Shown one piece after another: positions 6,467-64,000 of a stretch of 64,000 nt of DNA; the first letter of the stretch is position 1; the number at the start of each line of letters is the position of its first letter. Under the pieces are notes generated by a model, which made no database searches, was not told where the DNA came from, and saw nothing but the letters and a program-made list of their open reading frames with translations. The stretch is taken from NCBI GenBank assembly GCA_964016885.1, contig CAXHJY010001659.1, forward strand, positions 3,257 through 67,256. Direction: 5' to 3'. The stretch is from Eledone cirrhosa (Eukaryota). Position numbers and translations under genes: made by a program.

Positions 6467-7083
6467 AATATACATACATAAACGCATCTTGGCCGATAAA
6501 CATCTCTACATAATTTAATTAAATCTTGAAAAGTATCTCATCCTTGGCTAAAATATATGAGTGTCTTAACTTCTCGCCCTCTCTTGGGATAACCAGAAAC
6601 GTCGTGCCTAGATTGGTCAAAAGTGTGAAGGGAATTAAAAGCAAAGAAAAAAGAAGAGCATTGTATTAGTTACCAGTGGAAACACGCATATAGAGGTACG
6701 TTGTACTTAATCATAAGGTTTAACGGGAATATTTTAAAAAAGCGACAGTTTTTGCTGGGGAAAACAGCACCGGTAGAAAAAAAGTCACTCTTTATTTAAA
6801 TATAAAAAAAAAAAAAAAAAAGGTCACTTTTGGATTGAAAGATTTTTTCACTTTTGGCTAGGAAAATACGTCACAATTTTGACGAGGAAAAAATATTATT
6901 CAAATACCATAAAACAAAACGTAATTTATGTAACATAATGGGAACGTAACTATAAATCTATAAGAAAAACAATTTCCATTCATAACACTTACATTTCTAT
7001 TAGGTCTAGGTTAGGTTTACAAGGAAACCAATATATATATATATATAGATTCTAAACATTGGTACAGCTTTATATATATATAT

Positions 7084-7111
<28 letters not shown>

Positions 7112-7115
<4 letters not shown>

Positions 7116-7450
7116 AAGAAAAAGAGATGAAATCGAAAATGCAACTGGAGTCTTATTTTTTTTTAAAATATATATATTTATTTGGTTCCTTTACCGGTTT
7201 CGCAGTTCTTCTGCTTTACAAAAGGTGAGTTGAGATGGAGGGTCTGTGGTTTTTCTCACGTGAGAAAAACCACAGACCCTCCATCTCAACTCACCTTTTG
7301 AAAAGCAGAAGAACTGCGAAACCGGTAAAGGAACCAAATAAATATATATATTTAAAAAAAAAATAAGACTCCAGTTGCATTTTCGATTTCATCTCTTTTT
7401 CTTTATACTTTCACTCGTGTAGGACACCTCGGTTATTTTTCATTTTGTAA
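7112..7450 (+). repeat. Palindromic (fold-back) HHR-bearing repeat; single arm also at 14613-14815
   Basis: About 147-bp arms centred on 7259/7260 with no spacer. Confidence 0.9.
7294..7331 (+). ncRNA. Type-I HHR with U3-A8 core variant
   Basis: CCTT-TTGAAAA-GCAG aagaa CTGC-GAAA-CCG-GTA-AAGG. Palindromic stem III ACCGGT. Mutated mirror copies at 7188-7225(-) and ~14747-14784(-). Confidence 0.7.
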
Positions 7451-7462
7451 AAAAACCCTCAC

Positions 7463-8346
<884 letters not shown>

Positions 8347-8416
8347 CGGAAAAAGTAAACATCAAACAATCTTTTAAATAAAATAAAATACGATTTAAAT
8401 ATTTACCTCTTGTAGT

Positions 8417-8496
8417 GCCATGACCGACGGTTTCGCTTATCAAAAGATTGGAAATTCAGAGAATTTCCAATGGAAAGATATAGCTCTTCAGATAGC
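8417..8496 (-). ncRNA. Type-I HHR with extended stem II
   Basis: GCTAT-CTGAAGA-GC..(TTGGAAATTC/GAATTTCCAA)..GC-GAAA-CCgtcG-GTC-ATGGC. Confidence 0.8.
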
Positions 8497-8874
8497 TTTT
8501 CCAAATCTACTAGACATAAGTCCGTATAGATGTAAATATATCACCCACTGCCCAGTGAATGAATCAAGCCGTTAAAATGACCCACACACTTATTGGACCG
8601 TTAGAGAAAGCGGGAATTATAGACTCGCTGATATTTCATGCATGATACAGCATGATTCAGCATTTTTTTCTCTACATTAAGGAGAATTAGATAAATGATA
8701 TAGATATCCTAGTAGGTACTAGGTACCCACGGAAATATATATGGTGTCTATAATAGTGGTTGTTCTATGGAACTAATTTGAGATACCAGAACTGTAAATA
8801 TGAGCGGAACAAGTAAATATTAAACAATCTTTTAAATAAATTAAAATACGATTTAAATATTTACCTCTTCTAGC

Positions 8875-8954
8875 ATCATGACCGACGGTTTCGCTTATCA
8901 AAAGATTGGAAATTCAGAGAATTTCCAATGGAAAGATATAGCTCTTCAGATAGC
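8875..8954 (-). ncRNA. Second copy of the same HHR, 458 nt away
   Basis: Identical core and stems II/III. Stem I is weakened. Confidence 0.7.
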
Positions 8955-8986
8955 TTTTCCAAATCTACTAGACATAAGTCCGTATA

Positions 8987-9081
<95 letters not shown>

Positions 9082-9513
9082 TCTTGGTATGATTTCCAGA
9101 TATAAGATATGACTCTTTATTATTATCATTTTTTATATGAAATAATGATTGATCTTCCTTGTATCCCATGTCTGATTTAGCCTTAGAGAATAGAATAGCT
9201 ATGTGTGTATATATACACATTTATTACGTTTTAATATCTCTGTGGGTGCATTGGTTGTGTATACATATGGCTATTCTTTTAATATCCAATTGAGTTCTTA
9301 TACACGTGGTTAATACCTAACAGGTTTAAATGACCAGCGTGTATATTGTTTTATTTTAAGATGACCTCCCTTTACCCTTTTGGGGACAGCGTGTATTTTA
9401 TCTTTGGGAGGACTGCTGGATTATCTAATCTACCAGTCTCTTCTTAGCGCTGAGCGAGACCATGACCATTCTATTAATGTCGATATAATTCTTATATCGA
9501 TATTATTTGGGCA

Positions 9514-9637
9514 TCCACTGATGAGTTTATAAGAACCCGCTTGTGTATAAAAGTATGGATTATATACAAGTTTCTACATAACCTGGAAATTATTTATCCC
9601 AAATTGTAAAAATCTTATAACGAAACTGCTGTCTGGA
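9514..9637 (+). ncRNA. Type-I HHR with ~95-nt stem II domain
   Basis: TCCA-CTGATGA-GtTTATAAGA...TCTTATAAC-GAAA-Ctgct-GTC-TGGA. Confidence 0.8.
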
Positions 9638-9815
9638 AGGAAAGAGATATTTATTTAATAATGTCTCATATGAAATAATACAACCAGCTATCCACGAAAT
9701 ACTGATTAGTTAGCACCCCAAACACTAAATTGGGATAATACTTAGGTATATCCTAATGTTTGTTGAGTGAGATGGAGTTGGTCGGAGTATCGCTTAAGGC
9801 TTTCTCTGTTTATGT

Positions 9816-9877
<62 letters not shown>

Positions 9878-9878
<1 letters not shown>

Positions 9879-10068
9879 CGAAGGAAATGTGGTAAGGAAC
9901 CAGGTGGACCATAACGCACCAAAGTACTGAATACTTAGGGTAGTAGAGTGGGTAACAGGAACGAGTAGGACCCCGACGGCTGAGCTCAAGCCGTTTCGAC
10001 GGCTAATTCAGTCCAGAATTAGCCGTCGAAACGGCTGGAGCTCAGCCGTCGGGGTCCTACTCGTTCCT
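9878..10068 (-). repeat. Short fold-back repeat family; copies at 3274-3425, 14828-15000, 28311-28457, 40841-40978, 49904-50098
   Basis: Shared aacgaagg..gtggaccataacgcacc..gtagtagagtggg..ccgacggctgagctc sequence. Each copy ends in an inverted duplication and abuts (TA)n. Confidence 0.88.
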
Positions 10069-10094
10069 ATATATATATATATATATATATACAT

Positions 10095-10191
10095 ATATAC
10101 ACTATTTATTCTTGTCTCTGTCTGCGCATGCGTTTGAGTGTGTGAGTAATGTTTGGTGTGTGTCTTTATATGTGTTTGTTGTTATTGTACT

Positions 10192-10222
<31 letters not shown>

Positions 10223-10500
10223 TTATTTATTTATATTTCCCTTAAGTCAGTACTGTTGGTTTGGGTATGGTTGTTGTTGTTATGCCATTCGTTCTTTCTG
10301 TTCAACCTAGGTCTTCTCAGTTCTATCTCAGTTGCTTCTCTGATTGCCAACCTGTTGAGTCATTGCGTTGCTTAGATATTATTTTAATTTCTATGTTGTC
10401 TATATTACCGTCATACCTTTGTTTGCCGTATTCATATAGTACTGAACTGTATATTTGATTCGACACACGATTTCATATCAAAAACCTTGCAAAACAAATA
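10095..10500 (-). mobile_element. PLE GIY-YIG 3' fragment with an inverted terminal piece
   Basis: 10250-10445 is similar to 62025-62220. 10450-10500 is the pLTR terminus (cgacacacgatttcatatcaaaaacc) in the opposite orientation. Confidence 0.7.
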
Positions 10501-16552: not shown

Positions 16553-17487
16553 TGTTATATGTATATGAAAGTAAACGTGTTGAGTTTGAACAACTCAAGC
16601 GGTGGGGTCGTAAGGGCCCTGAGTTTGGTTTGTCTACGTTTCTTGGCATGCAGGTTAATTTAACTTGTAAATAATGTGGCCGGTTATGTCTAAGGAGGGC
16701 GGGCCTTGGAAGTCACCGGAGAAGCCACGTACACGGGGACACTGTCAGCTGTGCACTGTATGTCATTTCTGTTTATGGGAAATGTGGAAGAGAGTGTTCA
16801 TCAGTTGGTTGACTGAAATGTCATCTAAAAGTGCATCACAGCTGGACCGTAACACCTACTGCGAGAGGCCCCTATTGTTGCAACATCTGTACTGCTCATA
16901 CTTAGGTGTCAAGTTACAGTCACCATATGTATGTATATATATACAGATGAATATATATATATATTTTTTTCTTTCCCACACGCCACCTACATCCACAATA
17001 CGTATAAACACCACACATACGTGCGTACCCCCACATATTTACGCACTCAGCCTTCGGAATCCTCTCCCCCCTCCCCCACCCTCTGACCACTCCCCATCCA
17101 CACACGCACACACACACACACACCGACCTACACCCCACCCCACACACACCTTTTCCTGAACATGGAACCTCGTTCTTCCCCCAACTCTCACATTCACATA
17201 CACACACACACACACACGTACACCTACACACACACACCACCTTCAGCCCTCCCCGCTCGGACACCCCAACTCCCTCTCCCCGCTCCACCCGCCACCACCC
17301 CTACACGCCCACACCCTTCCACCACTTGTTTATCTTCATGTTTATTTTAATTTTTATTATTTTTATTATTTTTTTATATTTATTTTCATCTATTTTCATT
17401 TCCACCGTTTCCTCTCTCACCATTTTTTCTAAATGTCTCTCCCCCACTCCCCTACGCACCCTTGGAACTCTCTTCCCACACACTTTT

Positions 17488-17520
17488 CGCCTGAAGAAGG
17501 GCTTATGCCCGAAACGTCGT
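17488..17520 (+). ncRNA. Minimal HHR in the 5' pLTR of the PLE; the twin at 22265-22295 has lost GTC
   Basis: CTGAAGA-aGGGCttatGCCC-GAAA-C-GTC. Confidence 0.75.
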
Positions 17521-17989
17521 TCCCCCAACTCTCAAGAGCGTGAAACTAATAAACCTTTGTTCGTACTGCCTCTCTGTTTTGTTCCCGTTCCATTTTTCAC
17601 TATACAATACACGCTCCCACGGCTTCCATACCTCCTTGGAATACTACCTTGACTACCGGCTCAACCCCGATCTAATCCACCGTGACCACTCTCTGAACTT
17701 TCCCCACACCTTCCCACAACTTGTTTTTTCCTTTCTTTGCAATACTTTTTGATAGATTTATTTACTGTACTTGTTTATTTCTGTCTATGATTTTTTGTCC
17801 ATGATTGCCTGTGTTTTTACGTCTATGATTTTCCTGTGTATACTCTCCTCTCCTTACGTTATTTCTGTTTGATTTTCCCTCCCCCGTCTCTGCCTATCTT
17901 TCGCACTCACGCCTTCGTTCCACCCCCCCCCCCCCGCTTCACACACCTCCCTTCTCATTCCTCCCCCTGCTTTCACTCCACACCCACCA

Positions 17990-20754
17990 TTCCCAGCCTG
18001 AGATCCTTTCTCCACCAAATCCACAACGGCCTCAAACTTTTCCTCACCCCCTCCTCCTACCCTGCTATCTCCCCTCGGCCCTTCAACTCTCTACCTTCTT
18101 TTCGCCAAAACCCGGCACTCCAGCCACATCCATTTCCTCAGCCGCTGCCTCCACCTCCACCTTATCCTCCTCGGCTTCCGTCTACACTTCCACACCTCCC
18201 CCTCGCTTCCGCCTCCACCCAACGTATCCTCACCCGATCCTCGCGCCTCCTAATGCGCTACTCCCTCCGCACCTCCGCTCCACCGTCCGCAAACTTGACT
18301 ACCAACTGACCCCCACACTCCTCCGCCTTAACTCCGCCTGCCACCCCCTCCTCGCCCACTCCATCCTCCTCTTCATCCAAAACCTCAACCACGACCACTT
18401 CTCCTTCCTCACCTCCATCAAAGCCCTTAAGCTACACTCAATCCTCCCGACCACCCCCATCCACCCCCACCCATCCCTATGACTCCCCCCACTATCCACC
18501 CCTCCCCACGCCACACCTCTACCCGATCTCCACCCACCACCCCACTCTCACCACACCCTCCCCTCCTCCCTCACACACCCAAACCCCACCACTTGTTGTC
18601 ACCATACCCCCTGACCCCCCCCTCTCCGCACCTGAGCGTTCACTCCTCAGTAGAGGCCTTCGCTTCATACCCCACACTCCGCACAGCGACGAGTTCCGCA
18701 CCCGAACGGAAGTCGAGCGATTCGTGCGACGCACGAAGCTACAGGCACATTTCGATCAAACGCCCCAGACCCGTTTCTCGCCCTGGGCCGACGACCATCG
18801 TCTTGGACGCCGGCCCCAGGGTAATTTAGCACCCTGCTCATGTTCGTCGATGCCTGCCGTAGCGCAGTAAATCGCTTCGACTTCCGCCACCGGTCCCAAC
18901 GGAATAACATCACACGAGCGAACTCCTCGTTCTCCGCTCCCTCCGTAGCCGAGATGACATCGTCATAAAACCAGCGGACAAGGGAGGCGCCGTGGTGATG
19001 TGGTGTGCTGACCTCTACACGGCTGAAGCCCTCAGGCAGCTCCGTAACCCCCTCTTCTACCGCCCTCTACCCACTGATCCCACACCCCTCTACCAACAAC
19101 AAGTTCCCTCCACCATCCAACACCTTGTCTCCTCCTCCCTCTTTCCCCCACCGCTTCCCACCTCATCGTCCGCACCCCCCGCACCCCCACTATCTACTTC
19201 CTCCCCAAACTCCACAAACCCGACAACCCCGGCCGCCCCATCGTCTCCGCTTGCAACTGCCCCACCGAACTCATCTCCGCCTTTCTTGACACCATTCTCG
19301 CTCCCCTCGTCACCACCCTCCCCTCCCACATCTCCGACACCAACCACGCCCTTCGCCTATTCGACTCCTTCACCTTCCCACCCGCCCACAGCCCTTCCTC
19401 TTCACCCTAGATATCAAGTCGCTCTATACAGTTATCCCCCCACGCCGACGGCCTACGTGCCCTCAAGCACTACCCCGACCTTCGCCCCTCCCCCATCCCC
19501 TCCACTCACACCCTCCTTCGCCTCGCCGAGCTGGTCCTCACCCTCAACTATTTCTCGTTCTCGGGTGAGTTTTACCAACAGGTCTCGGGGGTAGCCATGT
19601 GCACAAGAATGGGCCCAAATTATGCCAACCTTTTCGTTGGCCCTGTTGAGGCCCAAAACTTTGCCCAGTACACCGGCCCCACGCCCGAACTGTACGGTCG
19701 TTACATGACGACTGTATCGGAGCCACGACCCTCACCCGAGAACAGCTCGACTCCTTTCTCTCCTTCTTCTGCTCCTTCCACCCCTCCCTCCACTTCACCA
19801 CCTTTATCTCCACCACCCACGTCCACTTCTTAGATATCTCCGTCGCCTTCTAACCCTACCACCACCCCCTCGTCACCTCCACCTCCTTCAAACCCACCGA
19901 CTCCCACTCCTACCTCGACTTCACCTCCTCCCACCCTACACACACAAAACACTCTATTCCCTACTCCCAACTCCTCAGGATCCGCCGCCTCTGTAGCCGA
20001 GATGCTGACTTTGAGTCCCAGGCCCTTTCCCTAGTCAGCCATTTCATCCGCAGAGGTTACCCCCACTCCCTCGTCCACACCGCCCTCACTCGCGCCCGTG
20101 CTGTCCACCGCTCCACCACTCTCACCCCACACACCGCACACCCACCCACCGTCTCCCCTTCCCCTTCACCTACCACCCCTCCACTCTACCCCTCCACCGC
20201 ACCATCCTCCGCCTCTTCCGACGACTCCAATCCGACCCCTCCACCTCCCACATCTTCTCAGCCCCACCACTCCCCTCCTTCAAACGCGCACGCAATCTCC
20301 GCACCCTCCTCGTCCGCAGCTCCCTACCCCCCCCCTCGGTTCCCTTCTCTGTTCCAGGCCTCGTTGTAACACCTGTCCCCACATCATCAACACCACCACC
20401 TTCCAGGGTCCCACCAGCCACTCTCTCTCTGTCCGGCACGCCTTCCACTGCACCTCCTCCAACCTAGTCTATGGACTTCGCTGCACGGAGTGTAGCGCAA
20501 CCTACGTCGGACAGACTGGACGTCGCCTGGCGGACCGTTTCACTGAACACCTCCGGGATATTCGTCTCGGCAGTAGTTCCCCCATCGCCCGCCACTCTGG
20601 CTGCCCAGGACATTCCGCGCACCACCTCACAGTCTGTGGCCTACTCCAATGCCACGGAACACCCGCCACCCTCCTCAGGGTCGAACAACACACCATCTTC
20701 ACCCTACAGACCCACACTCCCCTCGGCCTGAACTCCCCACCCCTATTCCTTTAG
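17990..20754 (+). pseudogene. Frameshifted PLE ORF (RT and GIY-YIG endonuclease; CxxxxCxxC linker suggests Neptune-like group)
   Basis: Motifs across frames: DIVIKPADKGGAVV, PKLHKPDNPGRPIVS, FTLDIKSLYT, GVAMxTRMGPNYANLF, a broken YIDD at ~19702, KPTDSHSYLDFTSSHP, SIPYSQLLRIRRLCS, CSRPRCNTCPHI, NLVYGLRC..YVGQTGR..RFTEH, PLGLN. Confidence 0.9.
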
Positions 20755-21303
20755 CCTTCGACCGCCGTGTTTCTTCCCCCACACACATATCCCCCACTAA
20801 CACCACTAACACACTCCTCCTTTTCACCGCCCAATCCACAACTAACAATACTAACACCCCCCCCCCCCCGACCGCCCGCCCCAACTAAAAATACTAACAT
20901 CCTTTTCCCCCCTTCTCTCTTCCCTTCCCCCTTCCCCTATCACGCACACACCCACCGGTACATATATACACGCACTCACACTAACCACACACCCTACTAC
21001 CACCACTAGCCCTCACCCACACATCCACTCCCACCACCCCACAACTAATACCACTAACATCCCCCCGACCCCACGCACACGAACCCCCCCCACTCACACC
21101 ACCCATTCGACACACCCTACCACCACTGACCCCCACTAACACACCCGCATTCAACCCTTTCCCCACCACCAGTATACTAACACCCACTAACACCCTCTTC
21201 ACCACACATACACTCATCCAAACACGCACACACACATCAGTACACTACACTCCCTCTATTGTCCCCACAACTTTCTCTCCCTCTCCCCGCTCCACCCACA
21301 CCC

Positions 21304-21368
<65 letters not shown>

Positions 21369-22386
21369 CCCACTAACACCTCTACTAATACACCCCCTCC
21401 CCCCACACAACCCCCTCACCACTCCATCTTTCACACCTACCCATCCTCTCGCCATGTCCACCGCACCTCCGCACACACTGACACACCGACTTTCTCCACC
21501 TGCCATTCTGCCCTGCTGCTGCTATGCCCTGACTCCCTGACCACCTCTCCGCACACACAGACACACAGCCCTCTCCACCTATCCTTCTCCTCTACCCTCC
21601 TCCTGCCTTGACCCTCTGACCACTCCCTGTTGTGCGCGCACCCGACATCTCCCCTCTTCCGACCAACCCAACCACGGATTACACACATTGGACATCGCTC
21701 CCACGAATCAACTCCATCACAACGAAAATATCCGGCAACCCACCACACCCTCTACGGAATTACCTTAGGAACTTACCCACGGACATACACTCACAACATT
21801 TTTTTTCCCACACGCCACCTACATCCACAATACGTATAAACACCACACACACGTGCGTACCCCCACATATTTACACACTCAGCCTCCGGAATCCTCTCTC
21901 CCTCCCCCACCCCACACACACCTTTTCCTGTACATGGAACCTCGTTCTTCCCCCAACTCTCACATTCACATACACACACACACACACACATAGATGTACA
22001 CCTACACACACACACCACCTTCAGCCCTCCCCGCTCGGACACCCCGCCTCCCTCTCCCCACTCCACCTGCCACGACCCCTACACGCCCCACACCCTTCCA
22101 CCACTTGTTTATCTTCATGTTTATTTTTATTTTTATTATTTTTATTATTTTTTTATATTTATTTTCATTTGTACCCCTTCCACCGTTTCCTCTCCCCCAT
22201 TTGTTCTTAATGTCTCTCCCCCACTCCCCTACACACCCTTGGAACTCTCTTCCCACACACTTTTCGCCTGAAGAAGGGCTTATGCCCGAAACGCCCCCCC
22301 CCACTCTCAAGAGCGTGAAACTAATAAACCTTTGTTCGTACTGCCTCTCTGTTTGTTCCCGTTCCATTTTTCACTATATATATATA

Positions 22387-40841: not shown

Positions 40842-41240
40842 GGAAAAAGTATGACCCCGACGACAGAGCTCAAGCCGTTTCGACGGCTATTTCTGGACTA
40901 TTTCCCACTCTACTACCCTAAGTATTGAGTACTCTGATGCGTTATGGTCCATCTGGTTCCTTGCCACAATTCCTTTGTAAATATCTATATCTATCTATCT
41001 ATCTATCTATCTATCTCTCTATCAGTCGTGTGTCACTTCGCGGAGAAGTTTCCGTTAATTTATGTAAGGAAAAAACGTGAGTTTTTAGTTCAATTTTATA
41101 TCATTGTGTAACTTGACCACCCGTCTGGACCTTCAGGTGGTGGGTCAACTCATTTTCGCCCCTTCAGGGGCGGAATATCCATTTAAAAAATTTTTCTCCA
41201 TCGAATCTTGGAAAAAATATTGTAAAATTTTGATTACGTT

Positions 41241-43157
41241 ATGAACGCTGCGTCCAACGATAATGGTGGTGGAGAGGCGGTAAGACTACAAAGCTCGCAG
41301 TCAACAACGTCTTCTTCACTAGATACTATAGAGATGGAAAGACAAAATGAAAATAAAAAAACGAATTCACATCCAAACAACACAAATGACACCAAACAGC
41401 TCAATGACAACAAAAATAACAGCAAAACCAATAATGATGATAAAAGCAACAATGATAACAACAACAAAGAAAAAAATAATGACAACGCCAATAACACCAG
41501 CATCAAAGACAACAACAACACCAAGGAAAATACGGATGATACCAACATCGGTGACAACAAGAATAACAACAAGAATAACAACAATAATGACAACACCACC
41601 AATACGGATTCCACAAAGAAACCAAAAATCTCCTTTGCGGAGAAAGTTCAAAAGAAAGAACAATTGATATATCTCGACATAACAAATGCTGAACACCTTT
41701 TAAAGGACGCTAAGAGATATGTCACCTTCGAAAAAAATGGTGCTTTCAGCATCAATTCTCCGGTAGAAATTCGCAAGGAAACTGCTCTCAAAACGATAGT
41801 TTTTAGGACAGTTTCCAATTCTACCCGAAAACCAGTCCAATTGTCACAGAAAGATATTGAACTGGTTTTCAAAGATTCAATGAATGATATTGCATTCATT
41901 CAAAGAAGCAAACTTTTTGGGAGTATTTCGGTACTGATGAAGGATCAATTGACGGCCCAAAATTACTCTGTGTCGCCAATTGTATCCAACCTGTACACCT
42001 TTTTCCCTACATACATGGGAAAAAGGACACAAAAGATCAGAATCACAAGTGTCACACCAAAGGTGAACATATGGTGGATACTGTGCGGCTTCATCAATTT
42101 TGATGAAGACAGAATACTGTCAGTAGGCAAGTCCCCCAGAGATGTATTCAATGGGACTAGCATTGAAGTTCTGGTGCAAATGAGCCCAGAGCGAATAGCT
42201 ATGATCCCACAGCGTGTACTCCTGGACGGACTTACCTACATAAACCTTTCGGTTGAGGGTAGGCGGCCTTCATGTTACCATTGCTTTAGCAGGGGTCACC
42301 TGAGGGCTTCCTGTCCTAAACTAATGAACCAAAAAAAGGCTCTTCTGCCAACACCCATCAAAACAACACAACCACCAACACCACCACTACAACAACAACA
42401 CCAACACACAAAAATAACCACAACAAACACAGTCCCACCCAACCTCACTCCACCTAAAACCACTGCAAAATCACATACAGACACAACAGCTCCCCAAGAC
42501 ATACCCCTCCCCAATCACACAGACGATACAACAGATGAGGCTATCTCGCCATCACCCAGTGAAGACGAGGGAGAACCCCATCGCTCGAAAAGAAAGAAAA
42601 GACATCACAAAAGCAAAAAACCAGTAAACACTACCACAAACATACAACCACCAACACAAACAACAAAAATATCACAAACAAAACCCCCACTTCCTGAAAA
42701 CAAAATACCTACAACAAAACGAAAGCACACACAAGAACTACAGACAAAAACAAACACAACACAAGAAAATTACACTTACACTTACATAAACACTGAAAAC
42801 AAAACACTAATGGAGACCATTACGAACGACCCTTCGGTTTTCACCGAAGGGAAAACTTTCGCCCACTCTATAAAAAATAGCAAAAAAATGAACCTAAAAC
42901 TGATTAGGGTCCCTATACAAACTTATAGGTCCCTAAAAGAAACATTTGAGAAGGATGTGGGGAATTCCTGCGTGAAACCACTCAACCGCGTCCTTCTCAA
43001 ATGCCTCCCCACCCCAGACACCCCCATCCCACCAGACCCCACCCCACCAAACATCTGCGTCCCCACCCCACCGGAAACCACCACCCATCCAGACAACCCC
43101 TCCAACACCCCCATGGAAATCGTGCGGCCTGGTCCCCAGGAGGCGAAGGGTGAGTGA
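41241..43157 (+). CDS. Tx1/L1-clade LINE ORF1 (gag-like nucleic-acid chaperone)
   Basis: 638-aa ORF with Asn-rich N-terminus, KISFAEKV motif, CCHC zinc knuckle CYHCFSRGHLRASC and Thr/Pro-rich tail. Lies directly upstream of an APE-RT ORF. Confidence 0.9.
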   Translation: MNAASNDNGGGEAVRLQSSQSTTSSSLDTIEMERQNENKKTNSHPNNTNDTKQLNDNKNNSKTNNDDKSNNDNNNKEKNNDNANNTSIKDNNNTKENTDDTNIGDNKNNNKNNNNNDNTTNTDSTKKPKISFAEKVQKKEQLIYLDITNAEHLLKDAKRYVTFEKNGAFSINSPVEIRKETALKTIVFRTVSNSTRKPVQLSQKDIELVFKDSMNDIAFIQRSKLFGSISVLMKDQLTAQNYSVSPIVSNLYTFFPTYMGKRTQKIRITSVTPKVNIWWILCGFINFDEDRILSVGKSPRDVFNGTSIEVLVQMSPERIAMIPQRVLLDGLTYINLSVEGRRPSCYHCFSRGHLRASCPKLMNQKKALLPTPIKTTQPPTPPLQQQHQHTKITTTNTVPPNLTPPKTTAKSHTDTTAPQDIPLPNHTDDTTDEAISPSPSEDEGEPHRSKRKKRHHKSKKPVNTTTNIQPPTQTTKISQTKPPLPENKIPTTKRKHTQELQTKTNTTQENYTYTYINTENKTLMETITNDPSVFTEGKTFAHSIKNSKKMNLKLIRVPIQTYRSLKETFEKDVGNSCVKPLNRVLLKCLPTPDTPIPPDPTPPNICVPTPPETTTHPDNPSNTPMEIVRPGPQEAKGE

Positions 43158-43190
43158 TCTCTTTTCCTCTTTTAACTTTTCAGCACCAAC

Positions 43191-46100
43191 ATGGCCAATA
43201 TAAGAGTTGGATGTGTGAATGTACGCGGCCTGGGGATGCCCTGGAAACAGGGCAAACTCTTAAACGACCTCAGGTCGCACAGTTTGGATGTGGTAGCCAT
43301 TTGCGAGTCCAGGATCCACGGCGAGCGACAGCTGGCCCCCATCTTCGATGACTTTGAGATCTACGCATCTCTCTGTCAACCGGGGGGTGGGGGCGGAGTT
43401 GCCGTTTTGCTGCGGAAACACCTGGGCCTCGTAACACAGACGGTACATCTGGACCCGGAGGGTCGACTGGTGGTCCTAGACGTTGACGGTAGTGAAGGTG
43501 GAGCGTTCAGGCTGGTGGCCGCATATGCCCCATCCGGGACACCGCGGCCAGACTTCTTCAAACGTCTAGAGACTTTTCTGGGAACGTCCCGCTCCTTGCT
43601 TTTAGTGGGGGACTGGAATGGAATCCTAGATGCACGTTGGGACTATGTGGGAGCATGTCCCGATAAAGGGGGGTGTAACAGCCTCAAACAGTTAATCGAC
43701 CGATTTGACCTGGCCGATAGATATCGACTAGATTTTCCGACTGCGCCACTGTGGACGTGGAGTAATCGTAGCGGAACATCTAGATCGTACCTAGATAGGG
43801 TTCTAGTTAGAAATAAGGATAGGGACATGTTAAGCTGTCCACAAATGTTCATGGTTGCCTATTCAGATCACAAACTAGTGACCTGCATGGCCAACCTTGA
43901 TAGAACCCATAGACAAGGACCCGGCTACTGGAAGCTGAACTTGTCGTTACCGACAAGCAAAGCCTACAGTAGACGGATTAGCACTTTAGTTAAACAGCAC
44001 TTGACAGGGGCCATTGTCAACAACAGATGGTGGTACTCTCTCAAGAGGGCAGTTAGATTAGACTCGATAGTTTTTAGTAAAGAATTAGCGTTAGATAGAA
44101 ATAGAACCGAGAAGGAACTGGTAGATAAAGTAGAAGAGGCAATTAGAAGTGGCAACGTAGCCAGCGTGCTAGCAACGAGAACGGCCTTGGACCAGTTCTT
44201 CGACGCAAAGCACGAGGGCTGCGTTGTCAGAAGCAAAATACGTGCTCTGGGAAACGAGGGAGCCAAAGCTGTTAGCTGGGCCCGAGTGACGGAGGCAAAA
44301 AGTGGCAACAAGTCCACGATTCGGTCTTTGAAGGACCAAAACGGACGCGTGATACGTGAGCCGAAGCAGATGTGTGCGGCTTTTCAGCGGCACTTTGCTC
44401 GGCTGTTCGGGGGGAGCGGCGCGCCGGGAGAGGCTATGGATTTCGGTCCATACCTCGACGGCCTACCGCGACTCTCGGACAGCGAGGCGAAGTTCTGCGA
44501 AAAGCCGATTTCAGCCACTGAGATAGGGGACGCGCTGAGCCAATGCGGCAAACGCAAATCTCCAGGTCTCGACGGTCTACCCTACGAATTTTACGTAGCA
44601 ATGCCGGACTTATTCTCCGGTCTCCTGGAAGCGGTCTACTGCAACTGGCAACAGAACGGGAGAATTCCCAGTTCTGTAACCGGGGGCGTGGTCACACTAA
44701 TCAGGAAGGACGAGAATAAGGGGGATGACATAGGCAACTTCCGGCCCATAACTCTGCTAAACACAGAGTTACAGATTTTGGCCAAGGTGTTGGCAAAGAG
44801 GCTGGCGCTTGTCGTCGAGAACCTGGTGGGAGAAGCGCAGACATGCGCGATCCCGACCAGGTCCATACACGACAACCTCCACCTCATGCGATACATCATA
44901 GAGAGGGTAGGGTGTAAACCCGGCTTCGGTGGGGCCCTGATCAACTTGGATCAGTCTAAGGCTTTCGATAGGGTTGACCATCGTTACCTGGATGCGGTGC
45001 TCGAGGCGGCAGGCTTCGGACCCGTGTTCAGGGGCTGGATTGCTGCAATGCACAACAGCAACATCTGCTCAAGGGTCAAGGTGAACGGTTACCTCTCGGA
45101 GCCGTTCCATATTACGCGATCCATTCGACAGGGATGCCCTCTCTCCTCCCTTCTGTACGTACTGACTCTCGAGCCACTACTGCGGAAGCTGGAGCTATTG
45201 CAGGGCATCCCTCTGGAACCGGGACTGCGGAAAGCGGCGTCGGCCTACGCCGACGACGTGACAGTAATGGTGTCGAGCGCCTCGCAAATCGAGGAAGTCG
45301 GCACCTTACTAAAGGAATACGAAAGTCTCACAGGAGCGAAGCTGAACCGGGACAAGTCCATCGGTTTGCAACTCGGATCGTGGAGAGGCAGACCGATGCC
45401 TTCCGATGGCGTCGTCGGACGCTGGACGGAAGGACCGGTAAAGCTGCTCGGGGTCTGGTTTGGTCCGGACCTCCAGGTGGAGAAGAACTGGAACGAAGTG
45501 ACGGCCAAGGTGTTTGCACTCACCCAGAAGTGGGCCGAGTGCAAACTATCCTTGAAAGGTCGAGCGGAGGTGGCGAACACTTTTATAGCGTCCGCCATCT
45601 ACTACCGCTTGACCGTCGTGCCTTGTCCAGCCAAAACGCTCGCCAAAATGGAGCGCGCCCTCTTCCGATTCCTTTGGAAGAGGCGGGCTCCTTTGGTAAG
45701 AAGATCCATCTGCTGCCAACACCCTTCTAACGGAGGGCTGGGGATGCCGTGGTTGACGATGCGCAAACACGCGCTCAGGCTGCGGCATCTCTACGTATTC
45801 CTCACCGGACAACCGGTGTGGGCCCCGTTCGTGAGGCGAGCCTTCCCACGACTCGTCTCGCTGACCGAGCTGCAGTCCTGGGTCAAGCAGAGACCGAGGA
45901 AAATGGGCGACTGGCACATCGAATGTGCTCAGGCGCTCACAGCCCTCTGGCAGGCGGACCCGGCGATCAGTGGAGACTCCACTTCGTCATTCTATAGAGG
46001 GTTGGTCCGCAGCAAGTGCGACGACGCGCTCGGTGAAACTCTAGGCGTGGAGGAAGATGAACTGGCCAGTCTGTTCGGTAGGACCTTCCGCCCGGGACCG

Positions 46101-46628
46101 ATGGACAACTTCCAAAAGTCCCTGGCCTGGCAGTGCTACCGAGGAGCTCTACCAGTTCGAGACAAGCTCTACAGACATGGGCGCCCGGGCAGGGACCCTG
46201 CAAAAAAGATCTGTCCGAGGTGCGTGCGAGACGAAGAAACCGTCGCGCACGCATTCATACACTGCCCGGGCGTCACTGACCTGTGGGGCTATGTAGAACG
46301 ACTATTGTCGCGGGTGGGACCAATCCAGTTGACCACCGAGTCCATTGTCATGATCAAACCGCCACCCTCCTTCAAAAACGAAGGAGAGGCGGTTTTCCTT
46401 TGTGTGATAGCTATGGCGAAAGAGGTTGTATGGTGGACAAGGTTGAAAGGGCTGAGGTCAGACACCTTTCTCTCCGGCCAACAACTGATTCTTTTTTTCA
46501 AATACCACTTTGGAAGAAGAATCAGGATGGAGAGAGAGGTGCTGTACCCCAGCAAGTTTTATGAAAGGTGGGTGAAAGTGGCGAGAATGGCCCGAGTGAA
46601 TGGGCCTTCTCTCTATATCAGCCTGTAG
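43191..46628 (+). CDS. Tx1/L1-clade LINE ORF2 (APE endonuclease + reverse transcriptase + C-terminal Zn finger)
   Basis: Uninterrupted 1145 aa. APE motifs NVRG, GGGVAVL, YAP, GDWN, YLDRV, SDH. RT motifs KSPGLDG, FRPITLLN, DQSKAFDRV, RQGCPLS, YADD. C-terminal CPRC..ETVAHAFIHC. GPGYWKLN after the EN domain is typical of Tx1. Confidence 0.96.
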   Translation: MANIRVGCVNVRGLGMPWKQGKLLNDLRSHSLDVVAICESRIHGERQLAPIFDDFEIYASLCQPGGGGGVAVLLRKHLGLVTQTVHLDPEGRLVVLDVDGSEGGAFRLVAAYAPSGTPRPDFFKRLETFLGTSRSLLLVGDWNGILDARWDYVGACPDKGGCNSLKQLIDRFDLADRYRLDFPTAPLWTWSNRSGTSRSYLDRVLVRNKDRDMLSCPQMFMVAYSDHKLVTCMANLDRTHRQGPGYWKLNLSLPTSKAYSRRISTLVKQHLTGAIVNNRWWYSLKRAVRLDSIVFSKELALDRNRTEKELVDKVEEAIRSGNVASVLATRTALDQFFDAKHEGCVVRSKIRALGNEGAKAVSWARVTEAKSGNKSTIRSLKDQNGRVIREPKQMCAAFQRHFARLFGGSGAPGEAMDFGPYLDGLPRLSDSEAKFCEKPISATEIGDALSQCGKRKSPGLDGLPYEFYVAMPDLFSGLLEAVYCNWQQNGRIPSSVTGGVVTLIRKDENKGDDIGNFRPITLLNTELQILAKVLAKRLALVVENLVGEAQTCAIPTRSIHDNLHLMRYIIERVGCKPGFGGALINLDQSKAFDRVDHRYLDAVLEAAGFGPVFRGWIAAMHNSNICSRVKVNGYLSEPFHITRSIRQGCPLSSLLYVLTLEPLLRKLELLQGIPLEPGLRKAASAYADDVTVMVSSASQIEEVGTLLKEYESLTGAKLNRDKSIGLQLGSWRGRPMPSDGVVGRWTEGPVKLLGVWFGPDLQVEKNWNEVTAKVFALTQKWAECKLSLKGRAEVANTFIASAIYYRLTVVPCPAKTLAKMERALFRFLWKRRAPLVRRSICCQHPSNGGLGMPWLTMRKHALRLRHLYVFLTGQPVWAPFVRRAFPRLVSLTELQSWVKQRPRKMGDWHIECAQALTALWQADPAISGDSTSSFYRGLVRSKCDDALGETLGVEEDELASLFGRTFRPGPMDNFQKSLAWQCYRGALPVRDKLYRHGRPGRDPAKKICPRCVRDEETVAHAFIHCPGVTDLWGYVERLLSRVGPIQLTTESIVMIKPPPSFKNEGEAVFLCVIAMAKEVVWWTRLKGLRSDTFLSGQQLILFFKYHFGRRIRMEREVLYPSKFYERWVKVARMARVNGPSLYISL

Positions 46629-61470: not shown

Positions 61471-62715
61471 CGGCGATGAATTAGTTTTGCGAGGTTTTTG
61501 ATATGGAATCGTGTGTCGAAACAAATATTGTTATACTTGGGGAGGGTCATATTTGTGTAATACTATTGCCAGAATTAATAACATAACACACTCACTGGTT
61601 GGTTGGTTTTCGCTTCTGTGTCCTTTATATCGGTTAATTTAATTTATTCGCTCCTCAATGTTGCCATTGACTGACAACTGTCAAAAATACAGATACAATA
61701 TAGACACAAACACATATATATAGTCTATCAAAGTTCTTTCGTTGAACATCTGCAACATCGTTAGTGTTGCTATTATGTTTCCTCCCGTTGCATTGTATGT
61801 TTACGCCATCTTTATTTAGTCTGTTTATTTATTTATTTATTTGTTTATTTTTTTGTCTCCTCTGCGCATGTGTTTGCGTATAGTGTTTTGTTTGGGTGAC
61901 TGTGTATTGGTTAATGTATTCTATCTTAGTTTACTAGTGTGTGTTTATATGTGTTTGTTGTTATTGTGCTTGTGTATGTATTTATCTATTTATTTTTTTA
62001 ACAATCTATCTATTTATACTTCTCTTAGGTCAGTGTTGTTTGGGTGTTGTTGTTATTCCATTCATTTTTTTCTGTTTAAACTTGGCCTTCTAAGTTCTAT
62101 TTCGCTGGCCTCTCTGATTTGCCTATCTGCTGGGTCATTTCTATGTTTAGATATTATTCTAACTTCTATGTTGTTTATGTTACCGTTGTGTTGTTGTCTG
62201 GCATATTCCTATAGTACTGAACCGTTTCTTCGTCCTGTTAGTTCCCGCCAGTGTTGGTCTATCCTTTCACTTATGCTACGAGCTGTCTCGGCTATGTATG
62301 TTGTTGTCATGTTTCTGCAAGTACCCTCTGTACATCTTATGCTATAGACTACGCTTCTAGTTTTACAGTTTATCCGGGGGTTTACTCTACATATGATAAA
62401 TTTCCTATTAGTACAGTGGGATTTCTTAAAAGGGTAGGTTTTGCTGATCAGGGATTTTATGGTGGTTCCTGGCTTTTCTACCACCTTAACCTTTAAGTGG
62501 GTCTTTCTCAGTGCCTTTCTACACTGGTAAGCTAATTTCCCTCCAGCGGTAGTGTCCACAAACATGACACTCTGGTATCTCTGGTTGTCGTACCATGATG
62601 TGGCTTTCCCTATCTTATGTCTAGCCCTATCTAAGCTATTCCAAGATTTGCTCCTATATAATGGGCAAATTCCTTTCATGTCCAGTTCTATGAGGGTCTT
62701 ATACTTTTCCATGGC
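61470..62715 (-). mobile_element. Inverted copy of the same PLE 3' end (GIY-YIG + pLTR)
   Basis: 62037-62715 is the reverse complement of 63317-64000 (ORF 62209-62736, MEKYKTLIELD...YIAETARS). It continues into a pLTR with a degenerate HHR at ~61727-61768 and ends at (TA)n. Confidence 0.88.
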
Positions 62716-64000
62716 AATGAGAAAATCTACACCCAAAATGAGGGAGCAGCCATCGGCGTCAGCATAGCTGGTGATGTTGCCAACCTTTTCATGGTATGGT
62801 GGGAAAGGAGACTTAAAGATCTCCTTAATGAAAGTTCCATAGACCTCATCATGTACTCTCGTTATGTAGACGATATCAATATAGTTATAAGAACACCCCC
62901 ACTAGAGAGCACTAACAAGTTTGATTTAGAACGTAGCACGATGGAAAGCATCCAGCAGATAGCTAATTCCATACACCAGAGTATAACTGTAACTATCGAC
63001 TTCCCTTCCAAACACCCTAACAATAGACTACCTGTATTAGACACAGAACTCTGGATTAACACTATAGACGAGAGAGCCCAAATTCTCCACTCACACTATA
63101 CTAAACCCATGGCCTCCAAATACCTGATACTCAAAAACTCAGCAATGTCCAGTAGTGCTAAGTTTAATATTCTGATCGCAGATTTGGTACGAGTGATGAA
63201 GAATGTGTCCAGCATGTGCGACCCAACAGAAATGGAAAGATACATCCAACACTTCATCAACCGCATGCAGTTCTCTGGCTACAACCAAAGAGACAGAGTC
63301 AGAGTATACGAAGGAGCCATGGAAAAGTATAAGACCCTCATAGAACTGGACATGAAAGGAATTTGCCCATTATACAGGAGCAAATCATGGAATAGCTTAG
63401 ATAGGGCTAGACATAAGATAGGGAAAGCCACATCATGGTACGACAACCAGAGATACCAGAGTGTCATGTTTGTGGACGCCACCCCTGGAGGGAAATTAGC
63501 TAACCAGTGTAGAAAGGCCCTGAGAAAGACCCACTTAAAAATAAAGGTGGTAGAAAAGCCAGGAACCACCATAAAATCCCTGATCAGCAAAACCTACCCT
63601 TTTAAGAAAACCCACTGTACTAATAGGAAATGTATCATATGTAAGGTGAACCCCCGGATAAACTGTAAAACTAGAAACGTAGTCTATAGCATAAGATGTA
63701 CAGAGGGTACTTGCAGAAACATGACAACAACATACATAGGTGAGACAGCCCGTAGCATAGGTGAAAGGATAGACCAACACTGGGGGGAACTAAAAGGACG
63801 AAAAAACGGGTCAGTACTATACGAACATGCTAGACAACAACATGACGGTAACATAGACAACATAGAAATTAGAATAATATCTAAACATAGAAATGACCCA
63901 GCAGATAGGCAAATCAGAGAGGCCAGTGAAATAGAAATTAGAAGACCAAAGCTAAACAGAAAGAATGAGTGGAACAACAACAACACCCAAACAAACAACA
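62716..64000 (+). CDS. 5'-truncated PLE ORF fragment (RT motifs to GIY-YIG), appears open to the window end
   Basis: Hand translation: YTQNEGAAIG, ANLFMVWW, RYVDD, LPVLD, HYTKPMAS, VMFVDATPGGKL, NVVYSIRC..YIGETARS, RQIREA, LNRKNEW. Absent from the ORF track, presumably because no stop falls within the window. Confidence 0.85.

What the first reader, a model, noticed from the sequence alone, without database searches (positions are those of the whole stretch)
8341..8992. 458-nt unit delimited by two HHRs: candidate circular-RNA retrozyme
Seen: a 194-bp direct repeat with an HHR (GUC site) in each copy, 458 nt apart, with no ORF, between (TA)n tracts. Inference: a minus-strand transcript would self-excise a 458-nt monomer able to circularise, and reverse transcription around the circle would regenerate a 1.x-mer like this one.
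Basis: partly seen in the sequence, partly recalled or inferred. Interest (0 to 1): 0.75.

Follow-up and report, generated by a model that had tools for sequence, protein, structure and literature searches.

The report
Hammerhead retrozyme with Penelope insertion marks
This is one ageing copy of a small non-coding jumping repeat that carries a predicted self-cutting RNA motif and sits at more than a thousand places in this animal genome; the way its copies start, end and share mutations suggests that a Penelope-type transposon enzyme likely copies one RNA circle round and round into TA repeats.

Summary
Observation confirmed: two 194-nt repeats 458 nt apart (8 mismatches), each with a minus-strand type I hammerhead (GUC site), no ORF, between (TA)n tracts. 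It is not a local duplication but one copy of a dispersed family (units 455-470 nt, 69-97% alike) whose ribozyme stems covary. Copies start at TWO fixed sites 111 nt apart, not one; 5' ends vary; 13 of 20 two-armed insertions use one site per arm, none the same defined site twice: the Penelope-like-element (PLE) 'tail' footprint. 78 of 84 passes run through the cleavage site. A young sister subfamily forms arrays of up to ~19+9 and ~41 units, with insertion-private mutations in every unit and both arms, implying a unit-length template copied repeatedly. Verdict: a new member of the known animal non-LTR retrozymes, probably mobilised by a PLE on an RNA circle. Cleavage, circles and the partner PLE are not shown; this copy's upstream ribozyme has a private stem I change and may be weak. 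The scan has reported this kind of element many times elsewhere in this genome.

The parts
8341..8992 (-). Whole insertion: single arm, 1.42 units of a 458-nt non-coding retrozyme unit; RNA sense is the minus strand
8341..8534 (-). 194-nt repeat, 3' copy in RNA sense (pseudo-LTR-like overlap)
8799..8992 (-). 194-nt repeat, 5' copy in RNA sense; ends at the variable 5' truncation, next to an AT-rich stretch where other copies also end
8417..8496 (-). Type I hammerhead, family-typical; 5-bp stem I, core 8491-8485, long stem II 8484-8435, GAAA 8434-8431, 3-bp stem III, predicted cut 8422|8421
8875..8954 (-). Second hammerhead; core intact, stem I altered by a private 3-nt change at 8874-8876; predicted cut 8880|8879
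8422..8879 (-). Predicted 458-nt cut-to-cut monomer (candidate circle), 34% GC, folds better than shuffles (z -4.2, measured on the 1-nt-shifted 8421-8878)
8341..8343 (-). Fixed start site S1 of reverse transcription (3' end of the insertion), about 81 nt downstream of the cut site in RNA sense
   Evidence: 72 of 100 arms start here
8685..8689 (-). Internal copy of the second fixed start site S2, 111 nt beyond S1; used by the second arm of two-armed copies, not used as an end in this copy
   Evidence: 17 of 100 arms
8762..8792 (-). Hairpin-forming stretch just 3' of S1 in RNA sense, in the part best kept between subfamilies; candidate recognition signal (inferred)
   Evidence: folded in this form in the sister subfamily
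8668..8686 (-). Small predicted hairpin just 3' of S2 in RNA sense, present in both subfamilies folded
8303..8343 (.). (TA)n target tract at the fixed end
8983..9080 (.). (TA)n tract at the truncated end

Best explanation
This is one copy of a dispersed, non-coding, hammerhead-bearing repeat family with two fixed ends and variable truncation, likely a non-LTR retrozyme that a Penelope-like element (PLE) protein would copy from a unit-length, probably circular, RNA into (TA)n tracts. Steps: (1, inferred) a copy with two ribozymes is transcribed on the minus strand, cut at both sites and ligated to a ~458-nt circle. (2, inferred from ends) A PLE endonuclease nicks a (TA)n tract and its reverse transcriptase starts inside the RNA at S1, 81 nt downstream of the cut; in about a quarter of insertions the other strand is extended from S2, 111 nt further on, giving a second, inverted arm. 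(3, shown in DNA) Synthesis runs through the ribozyme junction without gaps and stops at variable points, often at AT-rich microhomologies, giving 0.1-2 units in this subfamily and up to ~19 units per arm in a young sister subfamily. The window copy is an S1 single-arm 1.42-mer, about 2.5% from the family majority, probably now a weak or dead source.
For: Dispersed copies on many contigs (2618 candidates, 39 scored; 266 exact 20-mer hits, 0 control). Census of all 97 such hits on contigs C1 and C2: 100 arms, 72 start at S1, 17 at S2, 11 elsewhere; 78 insertions: 52 single S1, 2 single S2, 13 convergent S1+S2, 7 convergent with one defined start, 3 single other, 1 divergent; none with two defined identical starts. 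Sister subfamily: 6 of 6 two-armed insertions S1+S2. (TA)4 within 20 nt of an end in 76 of 78, background 257 of 2631. Two adjacent internal starts downstream of the ribozyme and inverted truncated arms are the PLE signature (PMC11167929, PMC8557442). 78 of 84 passes cross the cut site; 0 of 154 aligned crossings have a gap at the bond. Unit-length template: in the sister subfamily 5 of 15 insertions carry strictly private variants in every unit (28/28 and 29/29 over both arms of the ~19+9-mer; 4/4; 3/3), a sixth nearly private 40/40; in the window's subfamily 14 rare variants are shared by both copies of an overlap against 0.5-0.8 expected. Ribozyme under selection: core and stem III invariant in 22 hand-picked sequences (which were found by the motif), 9 of 26 pairs with double changes against 4.8 in shuffles, covariation 0.171 against at most 0.065 for slid controls. 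6 arms end at the cut site against 1.4 expected. Young (TA)n-flanked PLEs with a 1217-aa frame exist in the genome.
Against: No cleavage, RNA or circle was observed. No partner PLE found by sequence (0 of 95 TA-free 5' flanks join PLE sequence, the 3 hits being unrelated repeats). The catalytic fold is 3.3-4.9 kcal/mol above the minimum in all subfamilies folded and 6.6 in this copy's upstream ribozyme. In PMC11167929 ribozyme mutants did not affect PLE insertion in vitro and uncut RNA was the main template; in bioRxiv 10.64898/2026.07.22.740005 8 of 9 predicted dimers did not cleave. The excess of ends at the cut site is matched by AT-rich sites (5 vs 1.4 near q199; 7 vs 0.55 at q455-458), so it may be microhomology. 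The ~41-mer starts at neither S1 nor S2 and holds a repeated 6-unit block, so DNA-level expansion or assembly error contributes to long arrays. One two-armed copy (L172) may be S1+S1 with an eroded end. The covariation set was related sequences chosen by me, which inflates control (a).
Confidence: 0.7

Rival explanations
1. Same PLE-mobilised element, but the template is an uncut linear read-through transcript of a tandem copy; the ribozyme is dispensable for insertion and no circle is needed.
For: PMC11167929: uncut RNA was the dominant substrate and ribozyme mutants inserted normally. Tandem arrays long enough to act as masters exist in the sister subfamily. Gap-free junctions fit this too. 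Catalytic fold is not the minimum-energy fold.
Against: Private variants fixed in every unit differ from one insertion to the next and rare variants are shared within overlaps 14 vs <1 expected; a linear parent would pass on unit-specific differences. The recurrent position-specific differences I inspected were alignment artefacts (L014/L028) or came from a pair with the same flank (L015/L018). No array longer than ~2.1 units of the window's subfamily was seen (only 100 of 245 paired hits listed).
Confidence: 0.15
2. The template is a cleaved linear monomer that the reverse transcriptase copies repeatedly by jumping from its 5' end back to its 3' end.
For: Explains unit-length homogeneity and the small excess of ends at the cut site (6 vs 1.4).
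Against: 0 of 154 crossings have an insertion or deletion at the bond; about 27 exact jumps would be needed for the ~19+9-mer. That jumps are usually imprecise is recalled knowledge.
Confidence: 0.08
3. A satellite or local duplication spread at the DNA level (unequal exchange, DNA circles); the ribozyme look is incidental.
For: A repeated 6-unit block and scattered shared variants in the ~41-mer.
Against: Dispersed single insertions with two fixed starts, one per arm, in (TA)n; covarying stems.
Confidence: 0.03
4. The copies are only 5'-truncated 3' ends (pseudo-LTR remnants) of an autonomous PLE.
For: Same end signature as PLEs; the 2026 preprint derives retrozymes from pseudo-LTRs.
Against: Going 5', copies return to their own unit after 455-470 nt and never run into a reading frame; no similarity to sampled PLE loci (30 of 150 scored endonuclease loci and 19 loci of one family only).
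Confidence: 0.04

Closest known systems
Metazoan non-LTR retrozymes (Cervera and de la Pena 2020, PMC7229834; Li, Clavereau and Pollet 2026, bioRxiv 10.64898/2026.07.22.740005)
   Same: Non-coding tandem unit with one type I hammerhead per unit, GC below 50%, monomers to multimers, short palindromic stem III suited to dimeric folding, PLEs in the same genome; proposed copying of a circle into tandem cDNA.
   Different: Unit 458 nt (above the 170-400 nt tested there, inside the 51-972 bp of the preprint); stem II about 50 nt long; no Rfam match; insertions mostly partial and (TA)n-targeted, with two fixed starts and inverted arms, which the sections read do not describe; circles not shown here; no pseudo-LTR relative found.
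Penelope-like elements: Poseidon of Anolis (PMC11167929); Neptune/Naiad structure (PMC8557442)
   Same: Two internal starts downstream of the ribozyme ('tail'), AT-rich target, 5' truncation, partial tandem, inverted arm; both strands extended in vitro.
   Different: No ORF; tail 111 nt rather than 30-40; ribozyme has a 3-bp stem III and long stem II rather than the minimal form; many rounds per arm.
Non-autonomous Chlamys elements such as MRC1 (PMC8557442, passage)
   Same: Non-autonomous PLE passengers with pseudo-LTRs and head-to-tail multicopy insertions.
   Different: Those mostly lack hammerheads and resemble their partner at the 3' end; none found here.
Plant LTR retrozymes (PMC4918200, search listing; features as summarised in PMC7229834)
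   Same: Two ribozymes flanking a monomer that circularises.
   Different: Type III ribozyme, true LTRs, PBS/PPT, 4-bp TSD, Gypsy partner; none of these here.

Membership tests
Metazoan non-LTR retrozyme | Type I hammerhead with full core in each unit | tested here: met
   Rfam models do not detect it
Metazoan non-LTR retrozyme | Tandem head-to-tail units of a few hundred bases, multi-copy, at least two consecutive ribozymes in some copies | tested here: met
   (7 of 89 arms)
Metazoan non-LTR retrozyme | No protein coding; GC below 50% | tested here: met
Metazoan non-LTR retrozyme | No true LTRs: the terminal repeat is a variable-length overlap | tested here: met
   overlap length varies or is absent; PBS/PPT were not searched
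Metazoan non-LTR retrozyme | Target duplications, when present, longer than 4 bp | tested here: inconclusive
   2 of 78 with a 24- and a 43-nt duplication, 0 of 78 control; hidden in (TA)n elsewhere
Metazoan non-LTR retrozyme | Self-cleavage of the RNA | not testable with these tools
   only folding and covariation
Metazoan non-LTR retrozyme | Expressed as linear and circular monomers | not testable with these tools
   needs RNA data or a blot
Metazoan non-LTR retrozyme | Autonomous PLEs in the same genome | tested here: met
Metazoan non-LTR retrozyme | Sequence kinship to a PLE pseudo-LTR (2026 preprint; found for 24 of 57 Xenopus families against known TEs) | tested here: inconclusive
   none in the PLE loci sampled; sample incomplete
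Autonomous PLE | ORF with reverse transcriptase and GIY-YIG endonuclease | tested here: not met
PLE-type insertion (works like) | Two fixed 3' ends (tail), 5' truncation, inverted arm, microsatellite target | tested here: met
Plant LTR retrozyme | Type III hammerhead in fixed LTRs with 4-bp TSD | tested here: not met
   type I topology, variable overlap

The most novel reading that the evidence does not exclude
A PLE reverse transcriptase extends both strands of one (TA)n cut from two different internal sites of a single retrozyme RNA circle and rolls round it up to ~19 times or more per arm; each array is then a fossil read-out of one RNA molecule, and the array-private sites that recur in scattered units of both arms (6 of 28; 10 of 41 in another array) record repeated miscoding at one damaged or modified base.
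Probability: 0.4. Interest if true: 0.72.

Novelty: new member of a known kind. Interest (0 to 1): 0.5.

Why it matters
That animal retrozymes spread by PLE-driven reverse transcription of RNA circles is proposed in PMC7229834 and in the 2026 preprint, which states that the life cycle has little empirical support. This family keeps the insertion marks: two start sites, one per arm, seamless junctions and whole arrays homogeneous for private mutations. They name exact start positions and a template, so an in vitro assay like that of PMC11167929 can test circle against linear RNA directly. The window copy itself is an ordinary, ageing member.

Tried and rejected
Rfam: no match at gathering score in the window, no ribozyme family at E<=10 in 7000-10500. 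Sequencing runs: no RNA holder listed; the three holders are contigs of one sample and only show further subfamily variants; no evidence on expression either way. Partner search: unit against the 1217-aa PLE family and the window's C-rich PLE gave only AT-rich 12-26-nt matches; against 30 endonuclease loci none for the window unit and a 49-nt AT-rich antisense match for the sister unit, judged chance; a profile of 45 family segments gave best E 0.42; short-stem-II pattern gave 20 hits, 19 internal deletions of this family and one unrelated short insertion; hybrid junctions 0 of 95, the three hits being a SINE-like and a MITE-like repeat by position. Two same-strand hits 5.6 and 8.7 kb apart were separate short insertions. 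Pfam found nothing on the whole 1217-aa frame, a weak RVT_1 on its middle part. Bacterial promoter scan is not informative for an animal. A first motif script was mis-specified and missed the family, redone. Three arm ends at q300 are alignment breaks of a variant, kept in the counts. Literature searches for a description of two-armed multimeric retrozyme insertions or of this taxon's retrozymes listed none; supplements of PMC7229834 were not opened and those of the preprint are closed, and they may bear on this. Earlier findings by sequence and near this place: none.

Full report
Observation. The stretch 8341-8992 holds a 194-nt direct repeat at a spacing of 458 with 8 mismatches, between (TA)n tracts at 8303-8343 and 8983-9080. 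On the minus strand each copy has a type I hammerhead: 5-bp stem I, CUGAAGA, a stem II of about 50 nt (basal pairs, internal loop, 11-bp hairpin), GAAA, a 3-bp stem III and a GUC site. The cuts would fall at 8880|8879 and 8422|8421, 458 nt apart. There is no reading frame of note. Rfam does not recognise the motif, probably because of the long stem II (inference).

Family. The window lies in a 3.0-Gb animal-type genome; earlier scan notes call it a cephalopod, which I did not test. The element has 2618 first-look candidates (39 scored); a 13-nt piece of the ribozyme occurs 1790 times against 637 for the control. Relatives fall into subfamilies 69-97% alike with units of about 455-470 nt. In 22 sequences that I picked across subfamilies the core and stem III are invariant (they were found by that motif), and 9 of 26 pairs change on both sides against 4.8 in shuffles; slid controls score at most 0.065 against 0.171. 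The catalytic fold lies 3.3-4.9 kcal/mol above the minimum in all subfamilies folded; the near-palindromic stem III pairs with itself at -11.5 kcal/mol, which fits the dimeric folding described for short-stem-III ribozymes in PMC7229834. The window's upstream ribozyme has a private 3-nt change in stem I (1 of 154 junctions) that raises the gap to 6.6 kcal/mol; so this copy is a poorer source of monomer than the family norm (prediction).

Ends. For a sample not biased to long copies I took all 97 exact hits of a 20-mer on contigs C1 and C2, of 266 in the genome. Of 100 arms, 72 start at S1 (window 8341), 17 at S2 (equivalent to 8688, 111 nt further), 11 elsewhere. Of 78 insertions, 52 are single S1 arms, 2 single S2, 13 convergent pairs with one S1 and one S2 arm, 7 convergent with only one defined start, 3 other singles, 1 divergent; none has two defined identical starts, though L172 may be an eroded S1+S1. 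76 of 78 have a TA tract at an end against a 10% background; 2 of 78 show long target duplications. The other end is variable, 0.1 to 1.6 units; only 7 of 89 arms hold two ribozyme cores. Two internal starts downstream of the ribozyme, an AT-rich target and extension of both strands are what PMC11167929 showed in vitro for a PLE (abstract and main text read); partial tandems, inverted arms, tails and (TA)n bias are PLE features in PMC8557442 (passages read).

Template. Both starts lie 81 and 192 nt inside the 5' end of a cut monomer, so any longer copy must cross the cut site. 78 of 84 passes do; 6 end there against 1.4 expected, but AT-rich sites elsewhere show equal or larger excess. None of 154 aligned crossings has a gap at the bond; two have 5-6-nt deletions starting 2 nt away. 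A young 457-nt sister subfamily, 69% like the window unit, forms arrays: about 19 units plus an inverted 9 (L200/L201) and about 41 units (L202-L204), others 2-6. Of 15 such insertions, 5 carry strictly private variants in every unit, three of them across both arms, and a sixth a nearly private one in 40 of 40; all 6 two-armed ones are S1+S2. In the window's own, older subfamily (median 3.4% from majority) 14 rare variants are shared by both copies of an overlap against 0.5-0.8 expected. This implies a unit-length bottleneck followed by repeated copying; a ligated circle is the simplest form, exact template jumping the alternative. Against a pure reading: the 41-mer starts at neither site and repeats a 6-unit block, so DNA-level expansion or assembly error also acts; and PMC11167929 found uncut RNA to be the main template of its PLE.

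Partner. The genome has a young family with a 1217-aa frame, weak RVT_1 match, PLE-like Atlas neighbours at 0.97, a C-x4-C-x2-C linker as described for Neptune, a minimal hammerhead-like core, (TA)n flanks and two 3' ends about 45 nt apart in the two copies read, and further endonuclease families. None of the loci sampled shares sequence with the unit, and 0 of 95 TA-free 5' flanks join PLE sequence. Small hairpins lie just 3' of S2 in both subfamilies and 3' of S1 in the sister subfamily, loosely in line with another note.

Comparison and verdict. By ribozyme type, tandem unit, lack of coding and PLE co-occurrence this is a non-LTR retrozyme as defined in PMC7229834 (results and discussion read, supplement not) and bioRxiv 10.64898/2026.07.22.740005 (abstract to discussion read; supplements closed). 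Cleavage and circles, part of the definition, are untested; the preprint found cleavage in only 1 of 9 predicted dimers. The class and the proposed mechanism are known; what the family adds is DNA evidence for how insertion works. My searches listed no paper that describes the two-start, two-arm multimers. The scan has noted the same architecture many times in other pieces of this genome; I had the two starts, inverted arms and private-variant argument before reading those notes, and took from them the lead to count one start per arm. New member of a known kind; interest 0.5.

Noticed in passing
window 7575-8302: A second, unrelated non-coding family with the same build: 614-nt unit, 1.19-mer here, fixed start, (TA)n flanks, 3499 candidates. 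No canonical hammerhead; only a core-like UUGACGA...GAAA stretch on the minus strand in relatives. It may carry a variant ribozyme.
   Followed up: partly
window 7112-7468: Perfect palindrome with 148-nt arms; the same sequence with the same centre occurs in 3 of the 30 endonuclease loci L225-L254, so it is a repeated foldback element ending in TA.
   Followed up: partly
window 17461-22320: C-rich decayed PLE with reverse transcriptase-like and GIY-YIG pieces (weak Pfam hit) between two minimal hammerhead motifs at 17491 and 22268.
   Followed up: no
window 62209-62901 (-); full copies L076-L079: Decayed copy of a young, high-copy PLE family with a 1217-aa frame that holds a long asparagine-rich insert.
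   Followed up: partly
window 41226-46628 (+): Apparently intact LINE: 643-aa frame followed by a 1150-aa endonuclease/reverse transcriptase/zf-RVT frame.
   Followed up: no
window 1511, 14245, 16260, 22889, 28008, 51010, 54723, 57441, 61348: Further hammerhead-core-like motifs from several repeat families.
   Followed up: no
window 9878-10068: Small palindromic MITE-like repeat between TA tracts, also seen beside several fetched loci.
   Followed up: no
L200/L201 unit position 346; L202-L204 unit position 325: Array-private variants that recur in scattered units (6 of 28, both arms; 10 of 41): repeated miscoding on one RNA, gene conversion or assembly error. Unexplained.
   Followed up: partly
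L255-L274: 19 family copies with deletions inside the stem II hairpin, as if the polymerase skips the hairpin between short repeats.
   Followed up: no
L042:187-1160, L072, L046, L118: Another long-stem-II hammerhead family with about 588-nt spacing in the flanks of fetched loci.
   Followed up: no
window 8497-8503 and 8469-8475 (-): The bases 5' of stem I are complementary to the stem II internal loop in most subfamilies: a possible tertiary contact or an inhibitory fold that would protect a circle.
   Followed up: partly
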